The notes beneath the pieces were generated by a model. The model worked only from the letters and a program-made list of their open reading frames with translations. It did no database searches and had not been told where the DNA came from. A stretch of DNA of 64,000 nucleotides, from positions 14,341 to 78,340 of the forward strand of contig JASJAX010000001.1 in assembly GCA_030066755.1 (NCBI GenBank), in the 5' to 3' direction. A program made the translations under genes and the position numbers. Origin of the DNA: Acidimicrobiia bacterium (GTDB lineage Bacteria > Actinomycetota > Acidimicrobiia > Spongiisociales > UBA5794). Positions 3,749 to 53,380 of the stretch are shown here, piece after piece (position 1 is the stretch's first letter; each line of letters begins with the position of its first letter).

Positions 3749-4381
3749 TCAGTCGAGGCGGCCCTCGAGCTTGGAGCGGAGTCGCTCCTGAACAATCGTC
3801 GTGGTGATGTCGGCACGGCTCCGCTCGATCAGACTTCGTGCAACATCGGTGGTCCGGCGGAGACCCGAGGTCATCCCGTCCGGGTAGTCCAGCGATTGCA
3901 GGAGATCCTGGATCGTCTCCATGCGGCGGAAGGTCGCCTCTCCGGCGGCCAGTTCGCCGGCCCGCAGCTGATCCAGAAGCCGACGACGCATCTCGCCAAC
4001 TGCCTCACCGAGACCCTTCAGGTACGGGACGGCGTGGAGTCCGAGATCGGTCGGCAGCGGGATCGGCTGCTCGTTGAGGAGGGCCGCCGTCAGTTCAGCT
4101 TCGGCGTACTCCTTCACGGCGTCGTAGAAGAACCCGGCGTAGTAGATGTCCTGGTGCTCGGTCAGGGGCGCTTCCGCCTCCTTGATGAGCTCCTTGACCT
4201 CCGCGATGAGCCCGGCCGCAACGTCCTGTTCGTCTCGGTGGAGCGCGCGGATAGCCTTCGACGAGCCCTGGATGACCTTGCGGCAGTTCCTGAGCGCGAG
4301 CTCGCGAGCCGCCATCTTGCCGTCCAGTTCAGCACGCACTGCGGTCTCGAGCGGATCGAGATCGAGGGGAGGGTCGGTCAC
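3749..4381 (-). CDS. hypothetical protein, possibly translin-like
   Basis: Helical protein with DIYYAGFFYDAVKEYAEAE and an LDYPDG...RRTTDV pattern that resembles the translin family. The family call is from memory. Start is GTG 4381 or ATG 4315. Confidence 0.4.
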   Translation of the reverse strand: MTDPPLDLDPLETAVRAELDGKMAARELALRNCRKVIQGSSKAIRALHRDEQDVAAGLIAEVKELIKEAEAPLTEHQDIYYAGFFYDAVKEYAEAELTAALLNEQPIPLPTDLGLHAVPYLKGLGEAVGEMRRRLLDQLRAGELAAGEATFRRMETIQDLLQSLDYPDGMTSGLRRTTDVARSLIERSRADITTTIVQERLRSKLEGRLD

Positions 4382-4385
4382 CAGG

Positions 4386-4817
4386 TCAGCCGGCGACGAC
4401 GCGCACTGTGTGCTGCGCCGGTTCGGTCTCCGTGGCAGCCGGTTGCGAGATCGGCACCACCGGCGCCGGCGCACCCCGCTGACGCAGCTGCATCAAGAGG
4501 GCCACATACCCGGCGATGGCGACATCGAACACCAACGTCACGCCGAGCCAGACGACACTGGAACGCATGATGGCGACGGTCAGCGAGATGATCGCTCCGG
4601 CGGCAAGTGCGTAGAGGAAGCGACGGCGGCGTTCCCGCGCCTTGCGGCGAGCCATGACCTCGGTTCCGGGCACCGTGGCGACCGATGCGAGCAATGCGGT
4701 CGAACGCGCAAAGTCACGAGTTGCATTGATCGGGGCGCGTCGCCGTGACTCGAAGAAACTCGGCAGGAGAAACGCGGCCCAGATGAAGGCAATCAGTATG
4801 AAGGCGAGTATTTCCAT
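4386..4817 (-). CDS. hypothetical membrane protein
   Basis: Two or three predicted TM helices (ILAFILIAFIWAAFLL; AAGAIISLTVAIM; VTLVFDVAIAGYVALLM). Confidence 0.5.
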   Translation of the reverse strand: MEILAFILIAFIWAAFLLPSFFESRRRAPINATRDFARSTALLASVATVPGTEVMARRKARERRRRFLYALAAGAIISLTVAIMRSSVVWLGVTLVFDVAIAGYVALLMQLRQRGAPAPVVPISQPAATETEPAQHTVRVVAG

Positions 4818-5838: not shown

Positions 5839-7074
5839 TCAGTCAACGAGTGCCTCCGTCCGAGTTCGGGTTTCCGGCCAGCGAAACATCTCGAGCTCCA
5901 GGTCGGTGCCGGCCTCAACCGCACCAACACCGACCGGAACGACGGCGAACGCATTCGCTGCCGCAAGTGCCGATAGCACGTTCGATGATTGCCCACCGCT
6001 GAGGCGAGCCGACCATGCACCTTCGTGATAGGACGCTTCCGTTCGCAGGAACACCGCTTTGGCCGGATCCGTGCGCACAGCGTCGGCCAGGGCGCCAACC
6101 ACACGGGGGCGGAACAACCGGTGCGCCCCCATCATTGCCAGGAGGGCAGGGCGGAGGAACTGCTCGAACGCCACGACGACCGAAACCGGATTCCCCGGTA
6201 GCCCGAAGAACGGTTTGCCGCCGACCGTTCCGAACCCGAGCGGCTTTGCCGGCTGCATCGCAACTCGATAGAACTGCACGTCTCCGACGTCGGCGAAGAC
6301 GAGCTTCACGACGTCGTACTCGCCCATCGACACTCCACCGCTCGAGACCACGACGTCGGACTCCTGCGCAGCGTGGGCGAGTGCACGCCGCAACTCGTTG
6401 GGATCATCGGAGGCGATACCGAAATCGACGACGACGGCGCCGAACTCCTCGAGGACGCCACGGAGGAGGAACCGGTTGGCGTCCCGGATCTTTCCGGGCG
6501 CAAGGGTCTTCGTCTCCGGCGGGACCACTTCGTCCCCGGTCGACAGGATGCCGACAACCGGGCGCTTGCGGACGTCGGGCCATGCGATACCGAGCGACGA
6601 CAGCACGCCGAGATCGGCCGGACCGAGTCGGGTCCCTGCGGTGAGCACGGTTGTCCCGGCGGTGACGTCGCCGCCGGCCGGGCGAACCGCCTCACCGACG
6701 GGCACACCGGCAAGGATGCGGACGGCACCGTCGATCGACTCGGTGTCCTCCACTTTGACCACTGCGTCGGCGCCCTCGGGCATGGGTGCACCGGTCATGA
6801 TCTGGATCGCAGTGCCGGGCTGCACGGTCGAGGCAGCCACCTCTCCCGCAGCAACGGACTCGAGCACGGGGAGCTCAACCGGAGCCTGGGCCACGTCGAT
6901 CGCCCGTACTGCGTACCCATCCATTGCGGAGTTGGGGAACGGGGGGAGATCGTGCGGGGCCGACACGTCCGTTGCGAGCACGAGTCCGAGGACTTCTCGG
7001 ATCCCGATACGTCTCACCGGAAGCGGCGACATCGAGTCGAGGATCTCCGCCTGCATGTCCGGCAGGGGTCGCAT
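5839..7074 (-). CDS. moeA: molybdopterin molybdenumtransferase MoeA
   Basis: PFPNSAMDGYAVRA...SGGVSMGEYD...GLPGNPVS are MoeA/gephyrin E-domain motifs. Start taken at MRPLPDMQ. Confidence 0.85.
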   Translation of the reverse strand: MRPLPDMQAEILDSMSPLPVRRIGIREVLGLVLATDVSAPHDLPPFPNSAMDGYAVRAIDVAQAPVELPVLESVAAGEVAASTVQPGTAIQIMTGAPMPEGADAVVKVEDTESIDGAVRILAGVPVGEAVRPAGGDVTAGTTVLTAGTRLGPADLGVLSSLGIAWPDVRKRPVVGILSTGDEVVPPETKTLAPGKIRDANRFLLRGVLEEFGAVVVDFGIASDDPNELRRALAHAAQESDVVVSSGGVSMGEYDVVKLVFADVGDVQFYRVAMQPAKPLGFGTVGGKPFFGLPGNPVSVVVAFEQFLRPALLAMMGAHRLFRPRVVGALADAVRTDPAKAVFLRTEASYHEGAWSARLSGGQSSNVLSALAAANAFAVVPVGVGAVEAGTDLELEMFRWPETRTRTEALVD

Positions 7075-7091
7075 CGCGTCGTGCGGAGCCG

Positions 7092-7673
7092 TCACGATGA
7101 CGTCACGCTTCGTTCGCTTCCGGCGAAGATCCGACGGATGTTGCCGGCGTGCCGGGCAATGACGAGTCCTGCGGTTGCACCGGCCCAGAGCAAGCCGATC
7201 CCTCGCGTTCCGAACACCAGGTAGCCCGGGACGTACAGCACCATCGCCGCGAGGGATGCAATGGATGCGGTCTTGGTCGTTGCAACGACGCCGCCCCAGC
7301 CGACGGCCAGGATCAAACCCCAGATCGGCTCGAGCCAGAGCACGGCGCCCACCGCGGTGGCCACCCCGCGCCCGCCTTGGAATCGGTGCCATACCGGAAA
7401 GCAATGCCCAACCACGGCGGCGAGCGCACACGCAAACCCGACGGGAGAGCTGATCCATGCGGCACCGATCGCGGCCGCAGCCAGGCCTTTGAGGGAGTCA
7501 CCCAGGAGCACGACGGCCGCAGCCTTCTTCCCGACCGTGCGAAACACATTCGACGTTCCCGGATTCCCGCTGCCTTCGGCATAGATGTCTTTGCCCATGA
7601 GGCGGGGCACGATCACGCCAAAATCGATGCTGCCGATGAGGTACGCGAGAACGACCGCGACGAGTGTCTGCAT
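7092..7673 (-). CDS. plsY: glycerol-3-phosphate acyltransferase PlsY
   Basis: LIGSIDFGVIV...GSGNPGTSNVFR...GGRGVATAVG are PlsY motifs. Multi-TM protein. Confidence 0.8.
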   Translation of the reverse strand: MQTLVAVVLAYLIGSIDFGVIVPRLMGKDIYAEGSGNPGTSNVFRTVGKKAAAVVLLGDSLKGLAAAAIGAAWISSPVGFACALAAVVGHCFPVWHRFQGGRGVATAVGAVLWLEPIWGLILAVGWGGVVATTKTASIASLAAMVLYVPGYLVFGTRGIGLLWAGATAGLVIARHAGNIRRIFAGSERSVTSS

Positions 7674-7800
7674 GGTCCAAGTCTCGCACACCCCTGTGGC
7701 GTACGCTCCGCTCCCGTCCGACATGGCCGTCCCCGAGCGCTGATACCATCGTCCCGCGGCGACCAAGCCGCATGGCCTGATTCTGAAGGGGTAATCGGCA

Positions 7801-8553
7801 ATGATCGGTGTGTTCGGCGGTTCCGGGTTCTACGACTTCCTGGACAATCCGCGTGAAATCAAGGTGGAGACACCGTTCGGCGACCCCGCTGCGCCGTATC
7901 TCGTCGCAGAGATCGAAGGCGCCGACGTTGCGTTCCTCCCCCGCCACGGCCGTGACCACCAGTTCCCCGCCCATCGGGTGCCGTTTCGCGCCAACGTCTA
8001 CGGCATGCGAGAGCTCGGCGTGACCCACGTCATCGGACCGTGCGCCGCCGGCAGCCTCCAAACGGCACTCGAACCCGGGAGTTTCGTGGTGTGCGACCAA
8101 CTCGTCGATTGGACCAAGGGTCGCGCCGGCACGTTCTTCGACGGGCCGGAGCTGGAACATCTCTCGTTTGCCGACCCGTACCAACCAGAGTTACGGGCGA
8201 TCGCCGTCGACGCCATGCGCGCGACCGGTGCCACAGTCCATGACGGCGGTACGGTCGTCGTCATCGAGGGTCCACGCTTCTCGACCCGAGCGGAATCCGC
8301 GTTCTTCGCAGCCCAGGGCTGGGGCGTGATCAACATGACCCAAGCGCCCGAGGCGCAACTGTGCGCCGAACTCGGCATTGGCTATGTGAACGTGTCCGTG
8401 ATCACCGACTACGACGTCGGAGTCGAAGGCTCAATCGAGCCGGTGACCCACGAGGAAGTCCTGCGCCAGTTCTCCGCATCGCTCGACACCTTGCGTGCCG
8501 GTATCTGGGCGATGGTGCCGCAGATGGCGGCGCTGCCACCGTTGGCAGGCTGA
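7801..8553 (+). CDS. S-methyl-5'-thioadenosine phosphorylase (PNP family)
   Basis: MIGVFGGSGFY...AFLPRHGRDHQFPAHRVPFRANV...GVTHVIGPCAAGSL is typical of MTA phosphorylase. Confidence 0.8.
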   Translation: MIGVFGGSGFYDFLDNPREIKVETPFGDPAAPYLVAEIEGADVAFLPRHGRDHQFPAHRVPFRANVYGMRELGVTHVIGPCAAGSLQTALEPGSFVVCDQLVDWTKGRAGTFFDGPELEHLSFADPYQPELRAIAVDAMRATGATVHDGGTVVVIEGPRFSTRAESAFFAAQGWGVINMTQAPEAQLCAELGIGYVNVSVITDYDVGVEGSIEPVTHEEVLRQFSASLDTLRAGIWAMVPQMAALPPLAG

Positions 8554-47130: not shown

Positions 47131-48648
47131 ATGGCCGACACGGCGAACGACAAGGACACCAAAGCGACCGAGGACGAGGCAGCCGCAGACGACGCAACTG
47201 CTGAGTCGCCGCCGCATCACGAAGAGGAGTTCGTGGCCACGCAGCACAGCGTGAAGGTCGGACGCAAGAAGGTGGAGTACACGGCGACGGCCGGTCGCAT
47301 GCTGCTGCGCGAGGAGGATGGCAAGAAGCAGGCCACGTTCTTCTTCGTCGGGTACACCCGTGAGGATGTCGCCGATCCGTCAACGCGACCGATCGTGTTT
47401 GCGTTCAACGGCGGCCCGGGCTCGTCATCCGTCTGGCTCCACCTCGGTGCACTCGGTCCGCGGCGGGTCCTCCTCGCCGACGACGGCATGGCAGTACCGC
47501 CGCCGGGGCGACTGGTCGACAACGCGTACTCGATCCTGGACGTCGCCGATCTCGTCTTCATCGACCCGATCGGCACCGGGTACAGCCGAGCGATCCCGAA
47601 CGAAGAGGCGAAGCAGTACCACCACTTCAAGAAAGACATCGAGACCGTCGGAGAGTTCATCCGGGCGTACCTGACCAAGCACGATCGCTGGGGTTCGCCG
47701 AAGTTCCTCGCCGGCGAGAGTTACGGCACGACCCGTTCGGCGGGCGTTGCGGCGCACCTGTTCCGCCGCCACGGCATCTACTTCAACGGGCTGCTGTTGA
47801 TCTCGTCGATCCTCAACTTCCAGACCGCAGGGTTCGATCCGCAAACCGGGACGTTCCGGCGCGGCAACGATCTCCCGTACGTCGTGTTCCTCCCGACCTA
47901 TGCGGCTGCCGCCTGGTACCACGGCAAGCTGGCGAAGAAGTATCAGAAGATGTCGATCCGCAGCTTCCTCGACGAGGTCGAAGCATTCGCCGCCAATGAG
48001 TATGCGCTGGCGTTGTTTCAGGGTGACCGGCTCAGCGATGCGGATCGCGCCACCATCGTTCGCCGACTCGCCGAGTACACCGGGCTGTCGGAGACCTATG
48101 TACAGCGGTACGACCTGCGCATCGAGATCCTGCGATTCTGCAAGGAGCTGCTGCGTGCCGAGGGCTACACCATCGGCCGGATCGACGCCCGCTACAAAGG
48201 GCGGGGTCGGTTCGACGACGGGGACTCCATGGAATCCGATCCCTCCATCGACGCCACCATGGGTCTCTACACGTCGGCCCTCAATGACTACGTGAAGCGC
48301 GAGCTCGAGTACGAGTCCGATCTCCCGTACGAGGTCTTGTCCGAGCAGGTCTGGCAGAACTGGGACTACGAGGACTTCAAGAATGCGTACGTCGACGTTT
48401 CGGAGTCGTTGCGTGAGGTGATGGCCCGCAACGCATTCATGAAGGTCTTCGTGGCGAACGGTTACTTCGACCTGGCGACCCCCCATTTCGCCACCGAGTA
48501 CACGTTCAGCCACATGGGGCTCAGCCCCGAGGTTCGCGACAACGTCGAGATGACCTACTACGACGCCGGTCACATGATGTACGTCCACTTGGAATCGCTG
48601 GACCAGCTCGCCAAGGATCTCAGGGATTTCATCGCTCGAGCGTCATAA
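47131..48648 (+). CDS. S10-family serine carboxypeptidase
   Basis: NGGPGSSS and GESYG(T) are S10 catalytic-serine motifs. AGGAG RBS 6 nt upstream of the ATG. Confidence 0.7.
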   Translation: MADTANDKDTKATEDEAAADDATAESPPHHEEEFVATQHSVKVGRKKVEYTATAGRMLLREEDGKKQATFFFVGYTREDVADPSTRPIVFAFNGGPGSSSVWLHLGALGPRRVLLADDGMAVPPPGRLVDNAYSILDVADLVFIDPIGTGYSRAIPNEEAKQYHHFKKDIETVGEFIRAYLTKHDRWGSPKFLAGESYGTTRSAGVAAHLFRRHGIYFNGLLLISSILNFQTAGFDPQTGTFRRGNDLPYVVFLPTYAAAAWYHGKLAKKYQKMSIRSFLDEVEAFAANEYALALFQGDRLSDADRATIVRRLAEYTGLSETYVQRYDLRIEILRFCKELLRAEGYTIGRIDARYKGRGRFDDGDSMESDPSIDATMGLYTSALNDYVKRELEYESDLPYEVLSEQVWQNWDYEDFKNAYVDVSESLREVMARNAFMKVFVANGYFDLATPHFATEYTFSHMGLSPEVRDNVEMTYYDAGHMMYVHLESLDQLAKDLRDFIARAS

Positions 48649-48696
48649 CCCGAACGGCGCGGGAGATACCATTGCTGCGGCCCTGCGTCTGCACGC

Positions 48697-48769
48697 GCCC
48701 CAGTAGCTCAGGGGATAGAGCACCGGTTTCCTAAACCGGGTGTCGGAGGTTCGAATCCTCCCTGGGGCA
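48697..48769 (+). tRNA. tRNA-Arg: tRNA-Arg (anticodon CCU)
   Basis: Read by hand. Acceptor stem GCCCCAG/CUGGGGC. D stem GCUC/GAGC. Anticodon stem CCGGU/ACCGG with loop UUCCUAA. T arm GGAGG-UUCGAAU-CCUCC. Discriminator A. No CCA encoded. Confidence 0.85.
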
Positions 48770-49186
48770 CTCGGCGCCTGCCGGCTCCGCCGGCGGCGCT
48801 CCGCTCGCGGGCTCGCCGAGATCCGATGGCTACTCGCCATCGGACTCTCACCTCTCCCTGGGATCTCACTCCACCGGGGTCCTAGCTGCGAGACCCCGAC
48901 CGATCAGAACAGCGCCGCCGGGCGCAACCATGGGCAGCCCGCGACCCAAGAGCGAGGGTTCGAATCCTCCCTGGGGCACTCGGCGCCTGCCGGCTCCGCC
49001 GGCGGCGCCTCGTTCGCGTGAGTTCCGAGATCCGATGGCTGCTCGCCATCAGACTCTCACCTCTCCCTGGGATCTCACTCCACCGGGGTCCTAGCTGCGA
49101 GACCCCGATCTTCTAGAACAGCGCCGCCGGGCGCAACCATGGGCAGCCCGCGACCCAAGAGCGAGGGTTCGAATCCTTCGTGCCAA
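48744..49186 (+). repeat. 209-bp tandem direct repeat (2 full copies plus a truncated third) whose units begin with the tRNA-Arg 3' end
   Basis: The period is exactly 209 bp: ttcgaatcc recurs at 48750, 48959 and 49168. Copies are about 93% identical. Each unit starts with gagggttcgaatcctccctggggcac. A degenerate unit tail recurs at 49375-49457 after an unrelated insert of about 190 bp. Confidence 0.85.
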
Positions 49187-49521
49187 ACGGAACGAACCGC
49201 TGCTGCGCCGACCTCACACGACCAACGAACGGAACACCCACTCCTCTGGCCGCCTCCGGCGAGCGCGACCGCCGCGAATAGTCCCCCCGAAGGGGGGAAG
49301 GTACCGCCGGCCGAACAGGCCGGGGGTAGGGGGGATCAGCACTCGTCGACCACCGCACACAACCCCTCGGGATGCTGGCTGCGAGACCCCGACCGATCAG
49401 AACAACGCCGCCGGACGCAACCATGGGCAGCCCGCAACCCAAGAACGAGAGGCTCGGTGAGTACTGCAGCCGAAGGCTGCACGGCCTGCCGAGTAGCGCG
49501 TGGGCTCGGTAGGTTGGTGCC

Positions 49522-50109
49522 ATGGCGATTGCCCCCGATGCGAGAAACGAGTACCCGCCGATCGAGACGGATCGGCTGGTGCTCTCCCCTGGCACTGCCG
49601 ACGATGCTGGGGTGCTGTTTCCCCATGTGCACGGTGACGCGGGTCGGGAGGTGACCGACACGTTGATCTGGGACGGCCCCGACGCCGTCGACGACTTGGT
49701 GGAGTTCTTTGCACTCCACATGAGCAGTACGTTCGCACAGGGAGGGTTCCACTGGCTTCTCCGCGACCGCACTGGAGAGCTGACGGGCGGCCGAGGGCAG
49801 GCGATCGGCTCAATTGGGTTGGAGCCCGGAGCCCAGGCTGACGAATGCGCGATCGGATACTGGCTCGCTCCCCCCTTCTGGGGAAAGGGACTCATGGGCG
49901 AAGCCATCGTGGCCGTCAGTCAGCTCGCCTTCTCAGCGGGCTACGAGCTCATCGAAGCGACGGTGTTTGTCCACAACGGGCGTGGCTGCGCACTCGTCGA
50001 AAAGCTCGGGTTCCGCAAGGACAAGCGGGTCACCGACTACGCCATCAAACGTGGCGTCCCCCGGGACGCGTATCGGTACGTGGCGACCGAAAGCACCCTC
50101 GCCACCTGA
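49522..50109 (+). CDS. GNAT-family N-acetyltransferase (RimJ/RimL-like)
   Basis: IGYWLAPPFWGKGLMGEAI...ATVFVHNGRGCALVEKLGF. Confidence 0.8.
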   Translation: MAIAPDARNEYPPIETDRLVLSPGTADDAGVLFPHVHGDAGREVTDTLIWDGPDAVDDLVEFFALHMSSTFAQGGFHWLLRDRTGELTGGRGQAIGSIGLEPGAQADECAIGYWLAPPFWGKGLMGEAIVAVSQLAFSAGYELIEATVFVHNGRGCALVEKLGFRKDKRVTDYAIKRGVPRDAYRYVATESTLAT

Positions 50110-50137
50110 TCTGGAGACGCTCCAGTCTGCCTGGGCA

Positions 50138-50539
50138 TCACTCGGCGCAGAACGCAGCAATGTTCTCGAGTGCAGCTGCCGTGGCGTCGGGATCGAAGGC
50201 GTTGAAACGATCATCGTTGGCGCCAAGAACGGCTTGGAAGTCCCATTCGTACTCGGCGAGCAAGGACCCGAAGCCGTCAACGGCGTCGTACAGGATCTCG
50301 ACGTCATCGGCGACCTCAGAAGGTGCATCTACGGCTACCTCGTCGAGGACCTCCAGCCGCTCGGTGAACGCGGCCTCCAGCGCTGCCGGAGTGGCCGTTC
50401 CATCGATGATGTCGAAGTCCTCGGTCTCGAGGTCGGGCGCAAACTCACACCACTCGCTCGAATCCGATCCGCATGCGGCAGCGGCCAGGCTGAGCGCGAC
50501 AACGAGCACGAGTGTGCGTCCAATCTTCCAGGATGCCAA
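50138..50539 (-). CDS. hypothetical lipoprotein
   Basis: TTG start with GAGGAGG at -4. Lipobox LSLAAAACGS. Acidic mature domain. Confidence 0.5.
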   Translation of the reverse strand: MASWKIGRTLVLVVALSLAAAACGSDSSEWCEFAPDLETEDFDIIDGTATPAALEAAFTERLEVLDEVAVDAPSEVADDVEILYDAVDGFGSLLAEYEWDFQAVLGANDDRFNAFDPDATAAALENIAAFCAE

Positions 50540-50669
50540 GCGTCCTCCTCGGTAGCCGTTCGTCGACGCACCTCGCGCCGTGGGCCGGACCCTACCGATG
50601 GGGATCAACCCGTGGTGGATGACCCCTGGGAGGGTGTTCCTGACAACCGACCGTGCCGAGGCCGCGGCA

Positions 50670-51362
50670 TCAGCGGCGGCAGAGGTACGTGGCGTAGACG
50701 CTCCGTCGGACGGACTTGTGAACAATCTCGAACCCGGTTCGTTGGAGGGCCGACTCGAGCAACCAGCTGAACGTTGAGTATTCGGACATGATGTGGGTTC
50801 GAAGGTCAGCCCGGGTGTACCCCGAGGCGGGATCAGACGGCGCAGCTGCGAGCCATCCATCGATCGTGGGCACGATCTCGTGCGGCGGGATGTCGTAGAC
50901 GATGTCACGCAGCAGAAAGAGTCCGCCGTCCGTCAGGAGCTGTGCAATCCGTTGGAGCGCGATCACCTTCCAGAACTCGGGCAGCTGGTGCAAGGCGTTT
51001 CGCGAGTACACGAAGTCCACGGGCTCGCCGTCGTGCTGATACGAGAGCATTCCGGCCTCAACAACGACCAGGTTCGGGTAGAAACCGCTCTTCGACCGGA
51101 TGGCTTCCGCCATCGCCGGAGATGGGTCGACGGCGATCACGGTTGCACCAGTCTCCGCGGCAGCTGCGGCAAACGTGCCGGTACCCGCGCCCAGGTCGAT
51201 CACCGTCGCATTACGCGCCAATCCGTGGCGGACCAGTAGATCAATGTCGTCGGTCGGATCAAACTGCGCCTTGGAGTCGTAGGCCTCGACAAATGTTGCG
51301 TCGAGGTGCTCTGCACCCACGAATCGCTCGTCGTTCGGCCACCAATCAACCATCGCTGCCAA
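50670..51362 (-). CDS. class I SAM-dependent methyltransferase
   Basis: VIDLGAGTGTFA (motif I) ... VDFVYSRNALH. Confidence 0.75.
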   Translation of the reverse strand: MAAMVDWWPNDERFVGAEHLDATFVEAYDSKAQFDPTDDIDLLVRHGLARNATVIDLGAGTGTFAAAAAETGATVIAVDPSPAMAEAIRSKSGFYPNLVVVEAGMLSYQHDGEPVDFVYSRNALHQLPEFWKVIALQRIAQLLTDGGLFLLRDIVYDIPPHEIVPTIDGWLAAAPSDPASGYTRADLRTHIMSEYSTFSWLLESALQRTGFEIVHKSVRRSVYATYLCRR

Positions 51363-51431
51363 GCTAGTGGGTGAGCCAACACGAGACGATCGTCCTGATC
51401 CCGGTAGGCTTCGACGGGAGGTCTGGAGTCC

Positions 51432-52570: not shown

Positions 52571-53380
52571 CTACTCCCCCAGTACGCCGCCGGCCTCAAG
52601 GAGCTCCCGCAGCGTTGCGCCGAACCTCGCAGCTGGACCGCCGTCAACGGTGGTGTGGTCGATCGTCACGGTGAGGTCGAGGATCTTGCGGACAACGATC
52701 TCGTCGTCGACAACCCAAGGACGCTCCGTGACGCCACCGACGAGGACCGTCAGCGGCATGATCGTCTGTACCCCGATGCCGTGACCCGAACCCCCGAGGA
52801 ACATGCCAACGCTGGTCAGCGTCACTGTTCCGACCCGACGTCGCGCCGCAACCGACCGCGCCACGATCCAGTAGAAGAGAGCGAGCAGGATCGGGATCCG
52901 ACCGAGCGCCGCGACGAGCGTGGTCAGCCACCGCCCGCTCTGGCTGCGGCGGGGCTCCGTCTTGACACGGCGAATCTCGGCGGTGATGTCCTCCACGCTG
53001 CGGTTTGCCGCGTCGACCACCACGTGGGCGAGCGGAAACGGGCCGCGCTCCGTCTCGACCTCGATCATCAATGCAATGTCGACAGATTCGTGCACAACGA
53101 GACGACCGAAGAAGTCCCGGTAGGCGTGCACATCGGGATGGCGAGCGACCGCCCGTGCCACTGAGGCAAGGACGAATGCGGTCAGCGATCCGTCCGATCG
53201 TTCGAGCCGTCCCAGCGGCTCGGTCACGTCGAGCTGCACCAGGCCATGCATCGGCGAGGCAGTCCTCCCGGCGCGCATTGCTCGCACGACGAATCGCCGT
53301 GCCGGAGGGAATGGACGACGGATGAACCCAGGGTTGCCTTCGGGGACCATTGCTCCTCGAGTCGATGCCGGCAGCATCAC
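52571..53380 (-). CDS. stand-alone 2-oxoacid dehydrogenase E2-type acyltransferase catalytic-domain protein
   Basis: DHTTVDG matches the DHRxxDG catalytic motif of the E2 catalytic domain. No lipoyl or PSBD domains. Confidence 0.6.
   Translation of the reverse strand: MMLPASTRGAMVPEGNPGFIRRPFPPARRFVVRAMRAGRTASPMHGLVQLDVTEPLGRLERSDGSLTAFVLASVARAVARHPDVHAYRDFFGRLVVHESVDIALMIEVETERGPFPLAHVVVDAANRSVEDITAEIRRVKTEPRRSQSGRWLTTLVAALGRIPILLALFYWIVARSVAARRRVGTVTLTSVGMFLGGSGHGIGVQTIMPLTVLVGGVTERPWVVDDEIVVRKILDLTVTIDHTTVDGGPAARFGATLRELLEAGGVLGE

What the first reader, a model, noticed from the sequence alone, without database searches (positions are those of the whole stretch)
48697..49457. tRNA-Arg(CCU) followed by 209-bp tandem repeats that each begin with the tRNA 3' end, but with no integrase
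The 3' 26 nt of tRNA-Arg (T-arm plus acceptor strand) form the start of a 209-bp unit. The unit is repeated head-to-tail: copy 1 at 48744-48952, copy 2 at 48953-49161, and a third copy truncated after gagggttcgaatcc. A degenerate unit tail resumes at 49375-49457 after an unrelated insert of about 190 bp. Units carry internal hairpins (gcgcctgccggctccgccggcggcgc; ccgatggc...gccatcgg). Repeated tRNA 3'-end segments are the hallmark of attL and attR sites left by tRNA-targeting integrases. Here three such att-like segments occur only 209 bp apart, and the nearest genes (GNAT, lipoprotein, methyltransferase) include no integrase. This could be the scar of repeated integration and excision at tRNA-Arg, a small non-autonomous element that reconstitutes the tRNA end, or a tRNA-primed tandem duplication.
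Basis: partly seen in the sequence, partly recalled or inferred. Interest (0 to 1): 0.55.

Follow-up and report, generated by a model that had tools for sequence, protein, structure and literature searches.

The report
Gene-less repeats behind tRNA-Arg integration site
Behind a tRNA-Arg gene of an uncultured Acidimicrobiia bacterium sits a tandemly duplicated, gene-less 209-bp insert bracketed by copies of the tRNA's 3' end, most likely a stripped-down integrative element at an integration hot-spot, and unusual because its non-tRNA part is far better conserved between species than neutral DNA.

Summary
tRNA-Arg(CCT) lies at 48697-48770. Two 209-bp head-to-tail units (93% identical) each start with the tRNA's last 23 nt. 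A third start is cut after 12 nt, followed by a 190-bp unrelated stretch and an orphan 82-nt unit tail. No integrase domain was found in the ORFs tested in the 64-kb window.

A related metagenome contig (L023, peptidase 93% identical) has the same unit once, bracketed by two tRNA 3' ends. That is the signature of an insertion, not a duplication. L023 also carries a separate 2.3-kb integrase-less defence islet bounded by a 48-nt tRNA repeat. Gene content after this tRNA differs in every relative examined, so tRNA-Arg is an integration hot-spot.

The unit is non-coding and matched nothing else in the collections searched. Its 141-nt core is 89% identical between the two species with no indels. 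Fourfold-degenerate sites are 50-55% identical and spacers 51-65%. So it is not a decaying scar.

Best reading (about 0.42): a gene-less, att-flanked mini-element, duplicated by exchange at the tRNA-end repeats. Main rival (0.25): a conserved tRNA-linked non-coding RNA or regulatory module. Copy-number variation is only suggested, because short-read assemblies may collapse the repeat. Interest is moderate.

The parts
48697..48770 (+). tRNA-Arg(CCT), intact. Its last 23 nt (48748-48770, called H) form the first copy of the repeated tRNA end. T stem is GGAGG/CCTCC.
   Evidence: ARAGORN; Rfam RF00005, 69.7 bits; sequence.
48748..48956 (+). Unit copy 1 (209 bp): H (tRNA 3' end), hairpin 1 with a variable patch (48771-48815), then the conserved M'-T block (48816-48956).
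   Evidence: TRF; the repeat finder D1; allele comparison.
48957..49165 (+). Unit copy 2 (209 bp), 92.8% identical to copy 1. All 15 differences lie after position 52, in short patches.
   Evidence: The same copy-2 allele adjoins the truncated head in contig L004.
48774..48799 (+). Hairpin 1 (GCGCCTGCCGGC-TCC-GCCGGCGGCGC) directly after the tRNA end; repeated at 48983-49008. A CCGGC-NNN-GCCGG hairpin occupies the same place after the tRNA in L023 and L025, so it looks like the tRNA's native downstream hairpin.
   Evidence: L023 unit vs L025 66 nt at 92%.
48816..48956 (+). Conserved non-coding M'-T block of copy 1 (141 nt). It includes hairpin 2 (48818-48848) and hairpin 3 (48875-48898). It is 89.4% identical, with no indels, to L023:6778-6918.
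   Evidence: no frame open in all alleles.
49025..49165 (+). Conserved M'-T block of copy 2 (141 nt), 88.7% identical to L023.
49166..49177 (+). Truncated third tRNA-end copy (h, GGTTCGAATCCT). Identity with the tRNA stops after 12 nt.
   Evidence: What follows cannot complete the acceptor stem (sequence).
49178..49367 (+). X: a 190-bp stretch unrelated to the unit, with two hairpins (TCCCCCCGAAGGGGGGA and CCGGCCGAACAGGCCGG). It is identical in all strain contigs that cover it.
   Evidence: no significant local alignment to the unit or to related loci.
49368..49449 (+). T3: an orphan third copy of the 82-nt tail (91.5% to T1, 85.4% to T2, 86.6% to the L023 tail), not followed by a tRNA end.
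49522..50109 (+). GNAT acetyltransferase gene, first gene of the strain- and species-variable segment (about 48771-51403) between the tRNA and the conserved alpha/beta-hydrolase gene.
   Evidence: Pfam; homology with L023 resumes at window 51404.

Best explanation
The array is the product of site-specific integration at the T-loop-to-3'-end segment of tRNA-Arg(CCT).

Anatomy under this reading:
- About 186 bp of gene-less DNA (hairpin 1, M' and T) lies between the regenerated tRNA 3' end, which acts as attL, and a displaced copy of that end, which acts as attR.
- This makes it a stripped-down integrative element, comparable to a cis-mobilizable element but reduced to its attachment-site arms.
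- T would be the arm upstream of the core, and hairpin 1 plus M' the arm downstream.
- Each internal T-H-M junction is then equivalent to a reconstituted attP.

History in the window's lineage:
- The single insert, a state still seen in L023, was duplicated by exchange between the flanking tRNA-end/hairpin-1 repeats. This could be unequal crossing-over or attL x attR recombination between sister chromosomes.
- A later rearrangement cut the distal tRNA end to 12 nt and left X plus an orphan tail (T3).

The arms stay conserved because they are still bound by something, most likely a recombinase or accessory proteins encoded elsewhere in the genome.

Shown: the anatomy, the insertion signature in L023, the hot-spot behaviour of this tRNA, the absence of an integrase in the window, the non-coding nature of the unit, and its conservation above neutral.

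Inferred: the integrative-element origin, arm function, trans-mobilisation, and the order of events.
For: 1. The repeat starts at the T-stem/T-loop boundary and runs to the discriminator base. From my own knowledge, this is a classical integrase crossover sublocation (Williams 2002, cited in PMC9897764).
2. In L023 the unit occurs once and is bracketed by two copies of H plus about 27 nt of hairpin 1 (6697-6745 and 6920-6968, 88% identical). An insert flanked by target repeats is an integration signature.
3. The T-to-H junction is at the same nucleotide in both species.
4. The same tRNA in L023 also carries an unambiguous 2.3-kb insert with a 48-nt anticodon-loop-to-3'-end repeat and a compensated T-stem difference. 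Downstream gene content differs in L023, L024, L025 and the P0007 contig. High-GC proviral contigs carry fragments of this tRNA end.
5. M'-T is not detectable in the tRNA flanks of L024 and L025.
6. The M'-T block is 89.4% identical over 141 nt with no indel. Fourfold sites are 50-55% identical, spacers 51-65%, and the hairpin-1/variable part of the unit 51%. So conserved blocks lie on both sides of the core, separated by free spacer, as in attP arms.
7. H plus hairpin 1 (52 nt) is identical in copy 1, copy 2 and the L001 allele, although it is the fastest-evolving part between species. This fits recent exchange at that segment.
8. A conserved element-derived motif immediately upstream of each displaced repeat, and integrase-less tandem islands, are described for Dehalococcoides ssrA islands (PMC3146451).
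Against: - No recombinase domain in any of the 31 window ORFs tested, and none in the L023 locus.
- No autonomous relative with T and M' separated by genes was found.
- No second locus was found. The 19-mer scans of 596 Gb of genomes and of JGI metagenomes returned only this locus plus chance hits. Phage, plasmid and IMG/VR searches were negative. These scans needed exact words, so diverged copies would be missed.
- A 209-bp unit is very small for intramolecular excision.
- The repeat extends past the tRNA end into the native hairpin, which also fits plain homologous exchange.
- The H copies in each species match that species' own tRNA version (CCTCC or CCTGC). That fits vertical inheritance more simply than recent transfer.
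- T3 has no adjoining tRNA end.
- The spacer between core and M' differs by 13 nt between species.
Confidence: 0.42

Rival explanations
1. M'-T is a lineage-specific functional non-coding module: a small RNA, or a protein-binding regulatory DNA, linked to tRNA-Arg. It would be inherited vertically and kept by purifying selection. The adjoining tRNA-end/hairpin-1 segment would serve as its 3' processing or terminator module, or be a by-product. Copies multiply by unequal crossing-over at the repeated tRNA end.
For: - 89% identity with no indels, against 50-55% at neutral sites.
- Conserved blocks alternate with short hypervariable patches that fall mostly in loops and linkers.
- The + strand folds much better than shuffles (z = -6.1).
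- Every T is followed by a hairpin.
- The H copies match each species' own tRNA version, as expected for vertical inheritance.
- T3 keeps 85-91% identity although everything around it is unrelated.
Against: - No Rfam family matches at E <= 1.
- No promoter-like site.
- Stem changes in hairpins 2 and 3 are single and uncompensated (C-A, A-C and C-C mismatches). There is no double compensatory change inside M'-T.
- The module is absent from relatives with 74-85% identical peptidase.
- This reading does not explain why the module is bracketed by tRNA 3' ends that start exactly at an integrase crossover position.
- In L023 the next gene downstream is convergent, so T is not a promoter or leader for a downstream gene.
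Confidence: 0.25
2. The unit is an actively mobile, gene-less 'attP-only' mini-element, the integrase-world counterpart of a MITE. It would excise as a circle of about 209 bp or be exchanged between chromosomes, re-integrate in tandem at tRNA-Arg using an integrase supplied in trans, and have moved recently between the two species.
For: - High inter-species identity of M'-T against saturated neutral sites.
- Three distinct alleles within one population-level species: copy 1, copy 2 and the L001 allele, 90-95% identical, while the flanks are 98.3-99.6% identical.
- The variable patch V3 of copy 2 matches L023 rather than copy 1.
- Contigs differ in apparent copy number.
Against: - If the whole unit had been transferred recently, its hairpin-1/variable part should be as similar as M'-T. 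It is only 51% identical.
- The unit was found at one locus only.
- The H copies carry each host's own T-stem variant.
- No helper integrase was identified.
- The apparent copy-number differences can be explained by repeat collapse or chimeric assembly.
Confidence: 0.15
3. This is a plain tandem duplication of native tRNA-flanking DNA by illegitimate or homologous recombination. No integrase was ever involved and the DNA has no function.
For: - Head-to-tail copies with exact period and no indels.
- The repeat includes the tRNA's native downstream hairpin.
- No integrase found.
Against: - L023 has 1.2 copies, an insert flanked by repeats, not two full copies.
- The left breakpoint coincides with the T-loop crossover position in both species.
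- M'-T is absent from the native flanks of L024 and L025.
- The block is far more conserved than neutral DNA.
Confidence: 0.12
4. The two-copy arrangement is an assembly artefact of a strain mixture.
For: - The source is metagenomic.
- Several contigs break inside the repeat.
- L003 is probably chimeric at the tRNA.
Against: - The T-to-H junction continues into CCTCCCTGGGGCA beyond the 12 nt shared with the single-copy junction. That is shorter than any assembly k-mer, so real reads must span it (inference).
- L023, an independent assembly from another sample, has the same T-to-H junction.
- L004 independently supports copy 2 followed by the truncated head and X.
Confidence: 0.04

Closest known systems
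attL/attR direct repeats of tRNA-targeting integrative elements (genomic islands, prophages, actinomycete integrative elements), including tandem 'accretion' arrays such as the Dehalococcoides ssrA islands (PMC3146451)
   Same: - An intact tRNA is followed by displaced copies of its 3' segment, starting at the T loop.
- A conserved, element-derived sequence lies immediately upstream of each displaced copy.
- Several units lie in tandem.
- The downstream region varies between relatives.
   Different: - The bounded segments are only about 186 bp and contain no gene at all. Known islands are kilobases long.
- No integrase is present in the unit, the window or the related locus.
- The repeat extends into the tRNA's downstream hairpin.
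- The bounded DNA is conserved far above neutral.
Cis-mobilizable elements (CIMEs) of streptococcal ICEs: att-flanked elements lacking recombination and transfer genes (reviewed in PMC5704250; the concept is applied in PMC3146451)
   Same: The unit is flanked by attL- and attR-like repeats, has no integrase of its own, and is arranged in tandem at one site.
   Different: - CIMEs carry cargo genes and have identifiable parental ICEs that use the same att sites. No parent or helper was found here.
- Mobilisation is untested.
- The size is one to two orders of magnitude smaller.
The 2.3-kb integrase-less insert at the same tRNA in L023 (48-nt repeat, PDC-M05A candidate defence gene)
   Same: Same tRNA target, no integrase, bounded by tRNA 3'-end repeats, and with short repeated motifs inside both ends.
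   Different: - It uses the anticodon-loop sublocation (48-nt repeat) rather than the T loop (23 nt).
- It carries two genes.
- It has no sequence similarity to the unit.
MITEs and other miniature non-autonomous mobile elements
   Same: Small, gene-less, hairpin-rich, and presumably dependent on an enzyme supplied in trans.
   Different: - No terminal inverted repeats and no short target-site duplication.
- Not dispersed; it is found at a single locus.
- Its ends are defined by a tRNA segment.

Membership tests
tRNA-targeted integrative element (att-flanked island) | Direct repeat of the tRNA 3' segment, from T loop or anticodon loop to the 3' end, bounding the insert, with an intact tRNA at one end | tested here: met
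   23-nt repeat at 48748-48770 and 48957-48979, plus 12 nt at 49166-49177. The tRNA is intact. L023 shows the same arrangement.
tRNA-targeted integrative element (att-flanked island) | Integrase (tyrosine or serine recombinase) gene inside or next to the bounded segment | tested here: not met
   The unit is non-coding. No recombinase domain in 31 window ORFs or in L023 genes.
tRNA-targeted integrative element (att-flanked island) | Bounded DNA absent from the same site in relatives (empty site) | tested here: inconclusive
   L024 and L025 have the tRNA without M'-T, but their flanks carry other insertions (PadR genes, Tn3 transposase). No clean empty site was seen in a close strain.
Cis-mobilizable element (CIME) | attL and attR present; recombination and transfer genes absent | tested here: met
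Cis-mobilizable element (CIME) | A related autonomous element using the same att sites exists | tested here: not met
   No T- or M-like DNA in phages, plasmids, IMG/VR, GTDB representatives or JGI metagenomes at the sensitivity used.
Cis-mobilizable element (CIME) | Excision or integration in the presence of a helper integrase | not testable with these tools
   Needs reads or experiments.
Neutral tandem duplication / minisatellite | Head-to-tail copies that diverge at the neutral rate, with at least 2 full copies wherever present | tested here: not met
   L023 has one unit plus a flanking repeat. M'-T is 89% identical against 50-55% at neutral sites.
Known RNA family (Rfam 15) | Covariance-model match | tested here: not met
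   Only the tRNA itself matches at E <= 1 in 47500-50500.
MITE / IS-derived element | Terminal inverted repeats, short target-site duplication, dispersed copies | tested here: not met
   No terminal inverted repeats. No other copy in the window or in the collections.

The most novel reading that the evidence does not exclude
The 209-bp unit is a gene-less integrative mini-element consisting of nothing but an attachment site (arms plus the tRNA-end core). It would be maintained and multiplied at tRNA-Arg by an integrase supplied in trans, making it the site-specific-recombinase counterpart of a MITE. Its arms would be kept 89% identical between species by selection for mobility.
Probability: 0.15. 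Interest if true: 0.7.

Novelty: new variant of a known kind. Interest (0 to 1): 0.42.

Why it matters
tRNA 3'-end fragments are routinely read as fossil att sites that mark the ends of kilobase-sized islands. Here the bounded DNA is under 200 bp and has no gene. It is nonetheless about as conserved between species as first and second codon positions, and it is amplified in tandem.

If the unit is a trans-mobilised attachment-site-only element, it defines the lower size limit of integrative elements. It would also show that island-finding tools that require an integrase miss a class of elements.

If instead it is a tRNA-linked non-coding RNA or binding module, it is a new conserved non-coding element in the poorly studied Acidimicrobiia.

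In either case the locus, together with the 2.3-kb integrase-less defence islet at the same tRNA in a relative, documents an integration hot-spot populated by elements that have lost, or never had, their own recombinase.

Tried and rejected
1. Exact 19-mer scans of the unit tail. The scan of GTDB species genomes gave 6 hits and the scan of JGI metagenomes gave 9. All were chance except the known locus.
2. Viral-contig scans with the 19-mer and with a two-anchor pattern gave 0 hits. BLAST of the unit against phages and plasmids gave no match.
3. Viral contigs carrying the same tRNA end gave 48 hits. Most are unrelated low-GC tRNAs with the same T arm and acceptor strand. The few high-GC fragments have no T- or M-like neighbour.
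4. A six-frame pseudo-protein of the unit was searched against the protein collection to catch spurious ORFs on other contigs. It returned nothing.
5. Look-ups of the window's own peptidase and of P0001 were not on record. The Big-domain protein returned only 2-kb contigs that do not reach the array. P0003, P0005 and P0010 loci have no tRNA after the peptidase. The P0007 contig had no DNA available.
6. I suspected similarity between X and the left end of the L023 insert. It is not significant.
7. A small ORF starting at the ATG in T (MGSPRPKSE...) is rejected, because no frame stays open in all alleles.
8. A tRNA-like fold of T plus H is rejected. At the junctions the 5' strand of the T stem is missing, and no partner for the acceptor strand exists (sequence inspection; one search shows only pairing between repeated tRNA ends).
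9. An apparent 9-nt motif, GAGWYCCGA, as arm-type sites is rejected. Two of the copies are just the arms of hairpin 2, and the motif is not enriched in the window.
10. L003 as evidence for a single-copy allele is rejected. It is 82-85% identical to all other loci left of the tRNA and 99.8% identical to the window right of it, so it is probably a chimeric assembly.

Full report
**Observation**

The window holds an intact tRNA-Arg(CCT) at 48697-48770 on the + strand (ARAGORN; Rfam tRNA 69.7 bits). Tandem Repeats Finder reports a 209-bp period over 48748-49177, with 2.1 copies, 93% matches and no indels.

In register, the locus reads as follows:
- the 5' part of the tRNA
- H, the tRNA's last 23 nt (GGTTCGAATCCTCCCTGGGGCAC)
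- M1-T1
- H-M2-T2
- h, 12 nt of H (49166-49177)
- X, 190 bp unrelated to the unit (49178-49367)
- T3, an orphan 82-nt tail (49368-49449)
- 72 bp, then the GNAT gene (49522-50109)

The 22-mer of the tRNA end and a 19-mer of the tail occur nowhere else in the 64 kb. X has no significant similarity to the unit or to the related loci.

**No integrase**

The upstream neighbour is an S10 peptidase. Downstream lie a GNAT, an ORF with no Pfam match, a methyltransferase, an alpha/beta hydrolase and a 2-oxoacid dehydrogenase fragment. I called genes by GC3 and scanned all integrase-sized ORFs of the window against Pfam. All matches are metabolic or transport families, and none is a recombinase.

**Source and relatives**

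The flanking proteins come from uncultured Acidimicrobiia (names). Metagenome contigs encoding the identical GNAT (L001-L007) are 98.3-100% identical to the window.

L001 and L003 show only one unit between the tRNA and h. I do not regard this as proof of copy-number variation, for two reasons:
- L003 is 82-85% identical to everything left of the tRNA and 99.8% identical to the window right of it. It is probably chimeric at the invariant tRNA.
- The unit edges share at least 52-57 identical nucleotides, enough for a short-read assembler to skip a copy.

What is solid:
- L001 carries a third allele of the unit, 94.7% identical to copy 1 and 90.0% to copy 2.
- L004 independently supports copy 2 followed by h and X.
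- The T-to-H junction cannot be an assembly artefact. Only 12 nt are shared with the alternative junction, which is shorter than any assembly k-mer.

**The informative relative**

L023 is a JGI contig whose peptidase is 93% identical. It has the same peptidase and tRNA-Arg arrangement, and its anatomy is as follows:

1. The tRNA is followed by a 2.3-kb insert bounded by a 48-nt direct repeat running from the anticodon loop to the 3' end (4335-4382 and 6673-6720, 96% identical). The displaced copy has a compensated T stem, GCAGG/CCTGC, which is also the version found in the more distant relatives L024 and L025. The element therefore supplied the present GGAGG/CCTCC half.
2. The insert has CGCGGACTT-type repeats inside both ends and two genes. 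One is a strong match to the PADLOC candidate defence family PDC-M05A (E = 2e-57). The other has no match in any library searched. There is no integrase.
3. Directly after the displaced tRNA half comes one copy of the window's unit (79-89% identical). It is followed by a second H plus 27 nt of the hairpin that follows the tRNA (6920-6968, 88% identical to 6697-6745).

So in L023 the unit is a single insert flanked by target repeats. That is the signature of integration, not of tandem duplication. The T-to-H junction is at the same nucleotide as in the window.

Homology between L023 and the window stops at the tRNA/unit and resumes just before the hydrolase gene (window 51404). In between, the genes are entirely different. 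L024 (PadR), L025 (Tn3 transposase) and the P0007 contig differ again. tRNA-Arg(CCT) is therefore an integration hot-spot in this clade. Some high-GC proviral contigs in IMG/VR also carry fragments of this same tRNA end starting in the anticodon loop.

**Nature of the unit**

The head of the unit (H plus hairpin 1) looks like the tRNA end with its native downstream hairpin. A CCGGC-NNN-GCCGG hairpin follows the tRNA in L025, L023 and the window, with different stem sequences.

The rest, M'-T, has these properties:
- It is not detectable in the tRNA flanks of L024 and L025.
- It is non-coding, because every frame has a stop in at least one allele.
- It has no Rfam match.
- It has no promoter-like site.
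- It is hairpin-rich (z = -6.1 on the + strand).
- Stem changes are single and uncompensated.

Differences between alleles cluster in short multi-nucleotide patches between invariant blocks. All 15 differences between copy 1 and copy 2 lie after position 52.

**Key quantitative result**

Identity between the window and L023:

| Region | Identity |
|---|---|
| Fourfold-degenerate sites, two flanking genes | 55% and 50% |
| Three intergenic spacers | 51-65% |
| Hairpin-1/variable part of the unit | 51% |
| 141-nt M'-T block | 89.4%, no indel |

The M'-T value is comparable with first and second codon positions (92-96%). M'-T is therefore either under purifying selection or was exchanged long after the species split. 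A passively decaying scar is excluded.

The contrast within the unit argues for differential constraint rather than recent transfer of the whole unit. Conversely, the 52-nt H/hairpin-1 segment is the least conserved part between species, yet it is identical in all three alleles of the window's species. That suggests recent exchange at exactly that segment.

**Interpretation**

The most economical history has three steps:
1. A small insert of integrative-element type sat at the T-loop sublocation of tRNA-Arg, flanked by H/hairpin-1 repeats. L023 preserves this state.
2. In the window's lineage, exchange between the flanking repeats produced two tandem units with an attP-like T-H-M junction. The exchange could be unequal crossing-over or attL x attR recombination between sister chromosomes.
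3. A later rearrangement cut the distal H to 12 nt. X and the orphan T3 belong to an older or rearranged unit.

Conservation of sequence on both sides of the core, separated by free spacer, is what attachment-site arms look like. The closest described situation is the tandem ssrA islands of Dehalococcoides. There, each displaced repeat is preceded by a conserved element motif and some islands lack integrases, and these were interpreted as cis-mobilizable elements (PMC3146451). tRNA fragments as attR sites are general knowledge (PMC9897764).

What is unusual here is the size (about 186 bp, no gene), the lack of any detectable parent or helper, and the strength of conservation.

The main rival is that M'-T is a conserved tRNA-linked non-coding RNA or binding module. 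That explains the conservation equally well, but it does not explain the bracketing by tRNA ends at an integrase crossover position. An actively mobile attachment-site-only mini-element is the most novel reading still open.

**Limits**

- Only two species carry the unit, so covariation analysis has little power.
- The large DNA scans required exact words and are exhausted.
- No reads or transcriptomes were available.
- The complete genomes were not available for a search for integrases elsewhere.
- Copy-number variation is suggested but not shown.

**Verdict**

The feature is real and of att type. It is a new variant of a known kind, a gene-less att-flanked mini-insert amplified at a tRNA integration hot-spot, with an unexplained level of conservation. 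Interest is moderate.

Noticed in passing
L023:4383-6672: A 2.3-kb integrase-less insert sits at the same tRNA-Arg in a relative, bounded by a 48-nt tRNA repeat (anticodon loop to 3' end). It carries a PADLOC PDC-M05A candidate defence gene (198 aa, E = 2e-57) and a 435-aa protein with no match in Pfam, PHROGs, NCBIfam, PADLOC or PDB. CGCGGACTT-type repeats lie inside both ends (4491-4540 and 6597-6635). The element replaced the tRNA's 3' half with a version carrying a compensated T stem.
   Followed up: partly
L003:1-520 versus the rest of L003: This contig is 82-85% identical to the window and to all relatives left of the tRNA, but 99.8% identical to the window for 8 kb right of it. The likeliest cause is chimeric metagenome assembly at the invariant tRNA. 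The alternative is a real inter-species exchange with its breakpoint in the tRNA.
   Followed up: partly
L025:7754-10859: A Tn3-family transposase (DDE_Tnp_Tn3, DUF4158) and a resolvase-HTH fragment lie directly downstream of tRNA-Arg in a more distant relative (peptidase 74% identical). This is another kind of insertion at the same hot-spot.
   Followed up: no
L026, L077-L080 (peptidase 81-87% identical): In these relatives the peptidase is followed within about 60-80 bp by a convergent gene, and there is no tRNA-Arg. The peptidase/tRNA-Arg adjacency is therefore not universal in the clade.
   Followed up: partly
window 52571-53380 (-) and equivalents in L001-L005: The 2-oxoacid dehydrogenase catalytic-domain gene is called at very different lengths in near-identical strain contigs: 226 aa in L002, L004 and L005, but split into 77 + 98 aa in L001 and 97 + 98 aa in L003. 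This suggests frameshifts or pseudogenisation in some strains, or assembly errors.
   Followed up: no
L023:7030-7314: Twelve overlapping copies of a 15-nt period (a pentapeptide-type coding repeat) lie at the 3' end of the S8 peptidase gene (7037-8491, minus strand).
   Followed up: no
window 49188-49240: Inside X there are two short AACG(G/A)AACG(A/G)AAC-type runs (49188-49200 and 49224-49238), followed by two strong hairpins (49283-49299 and 49309-49325). Their significance is unknown.
   Followed up: no
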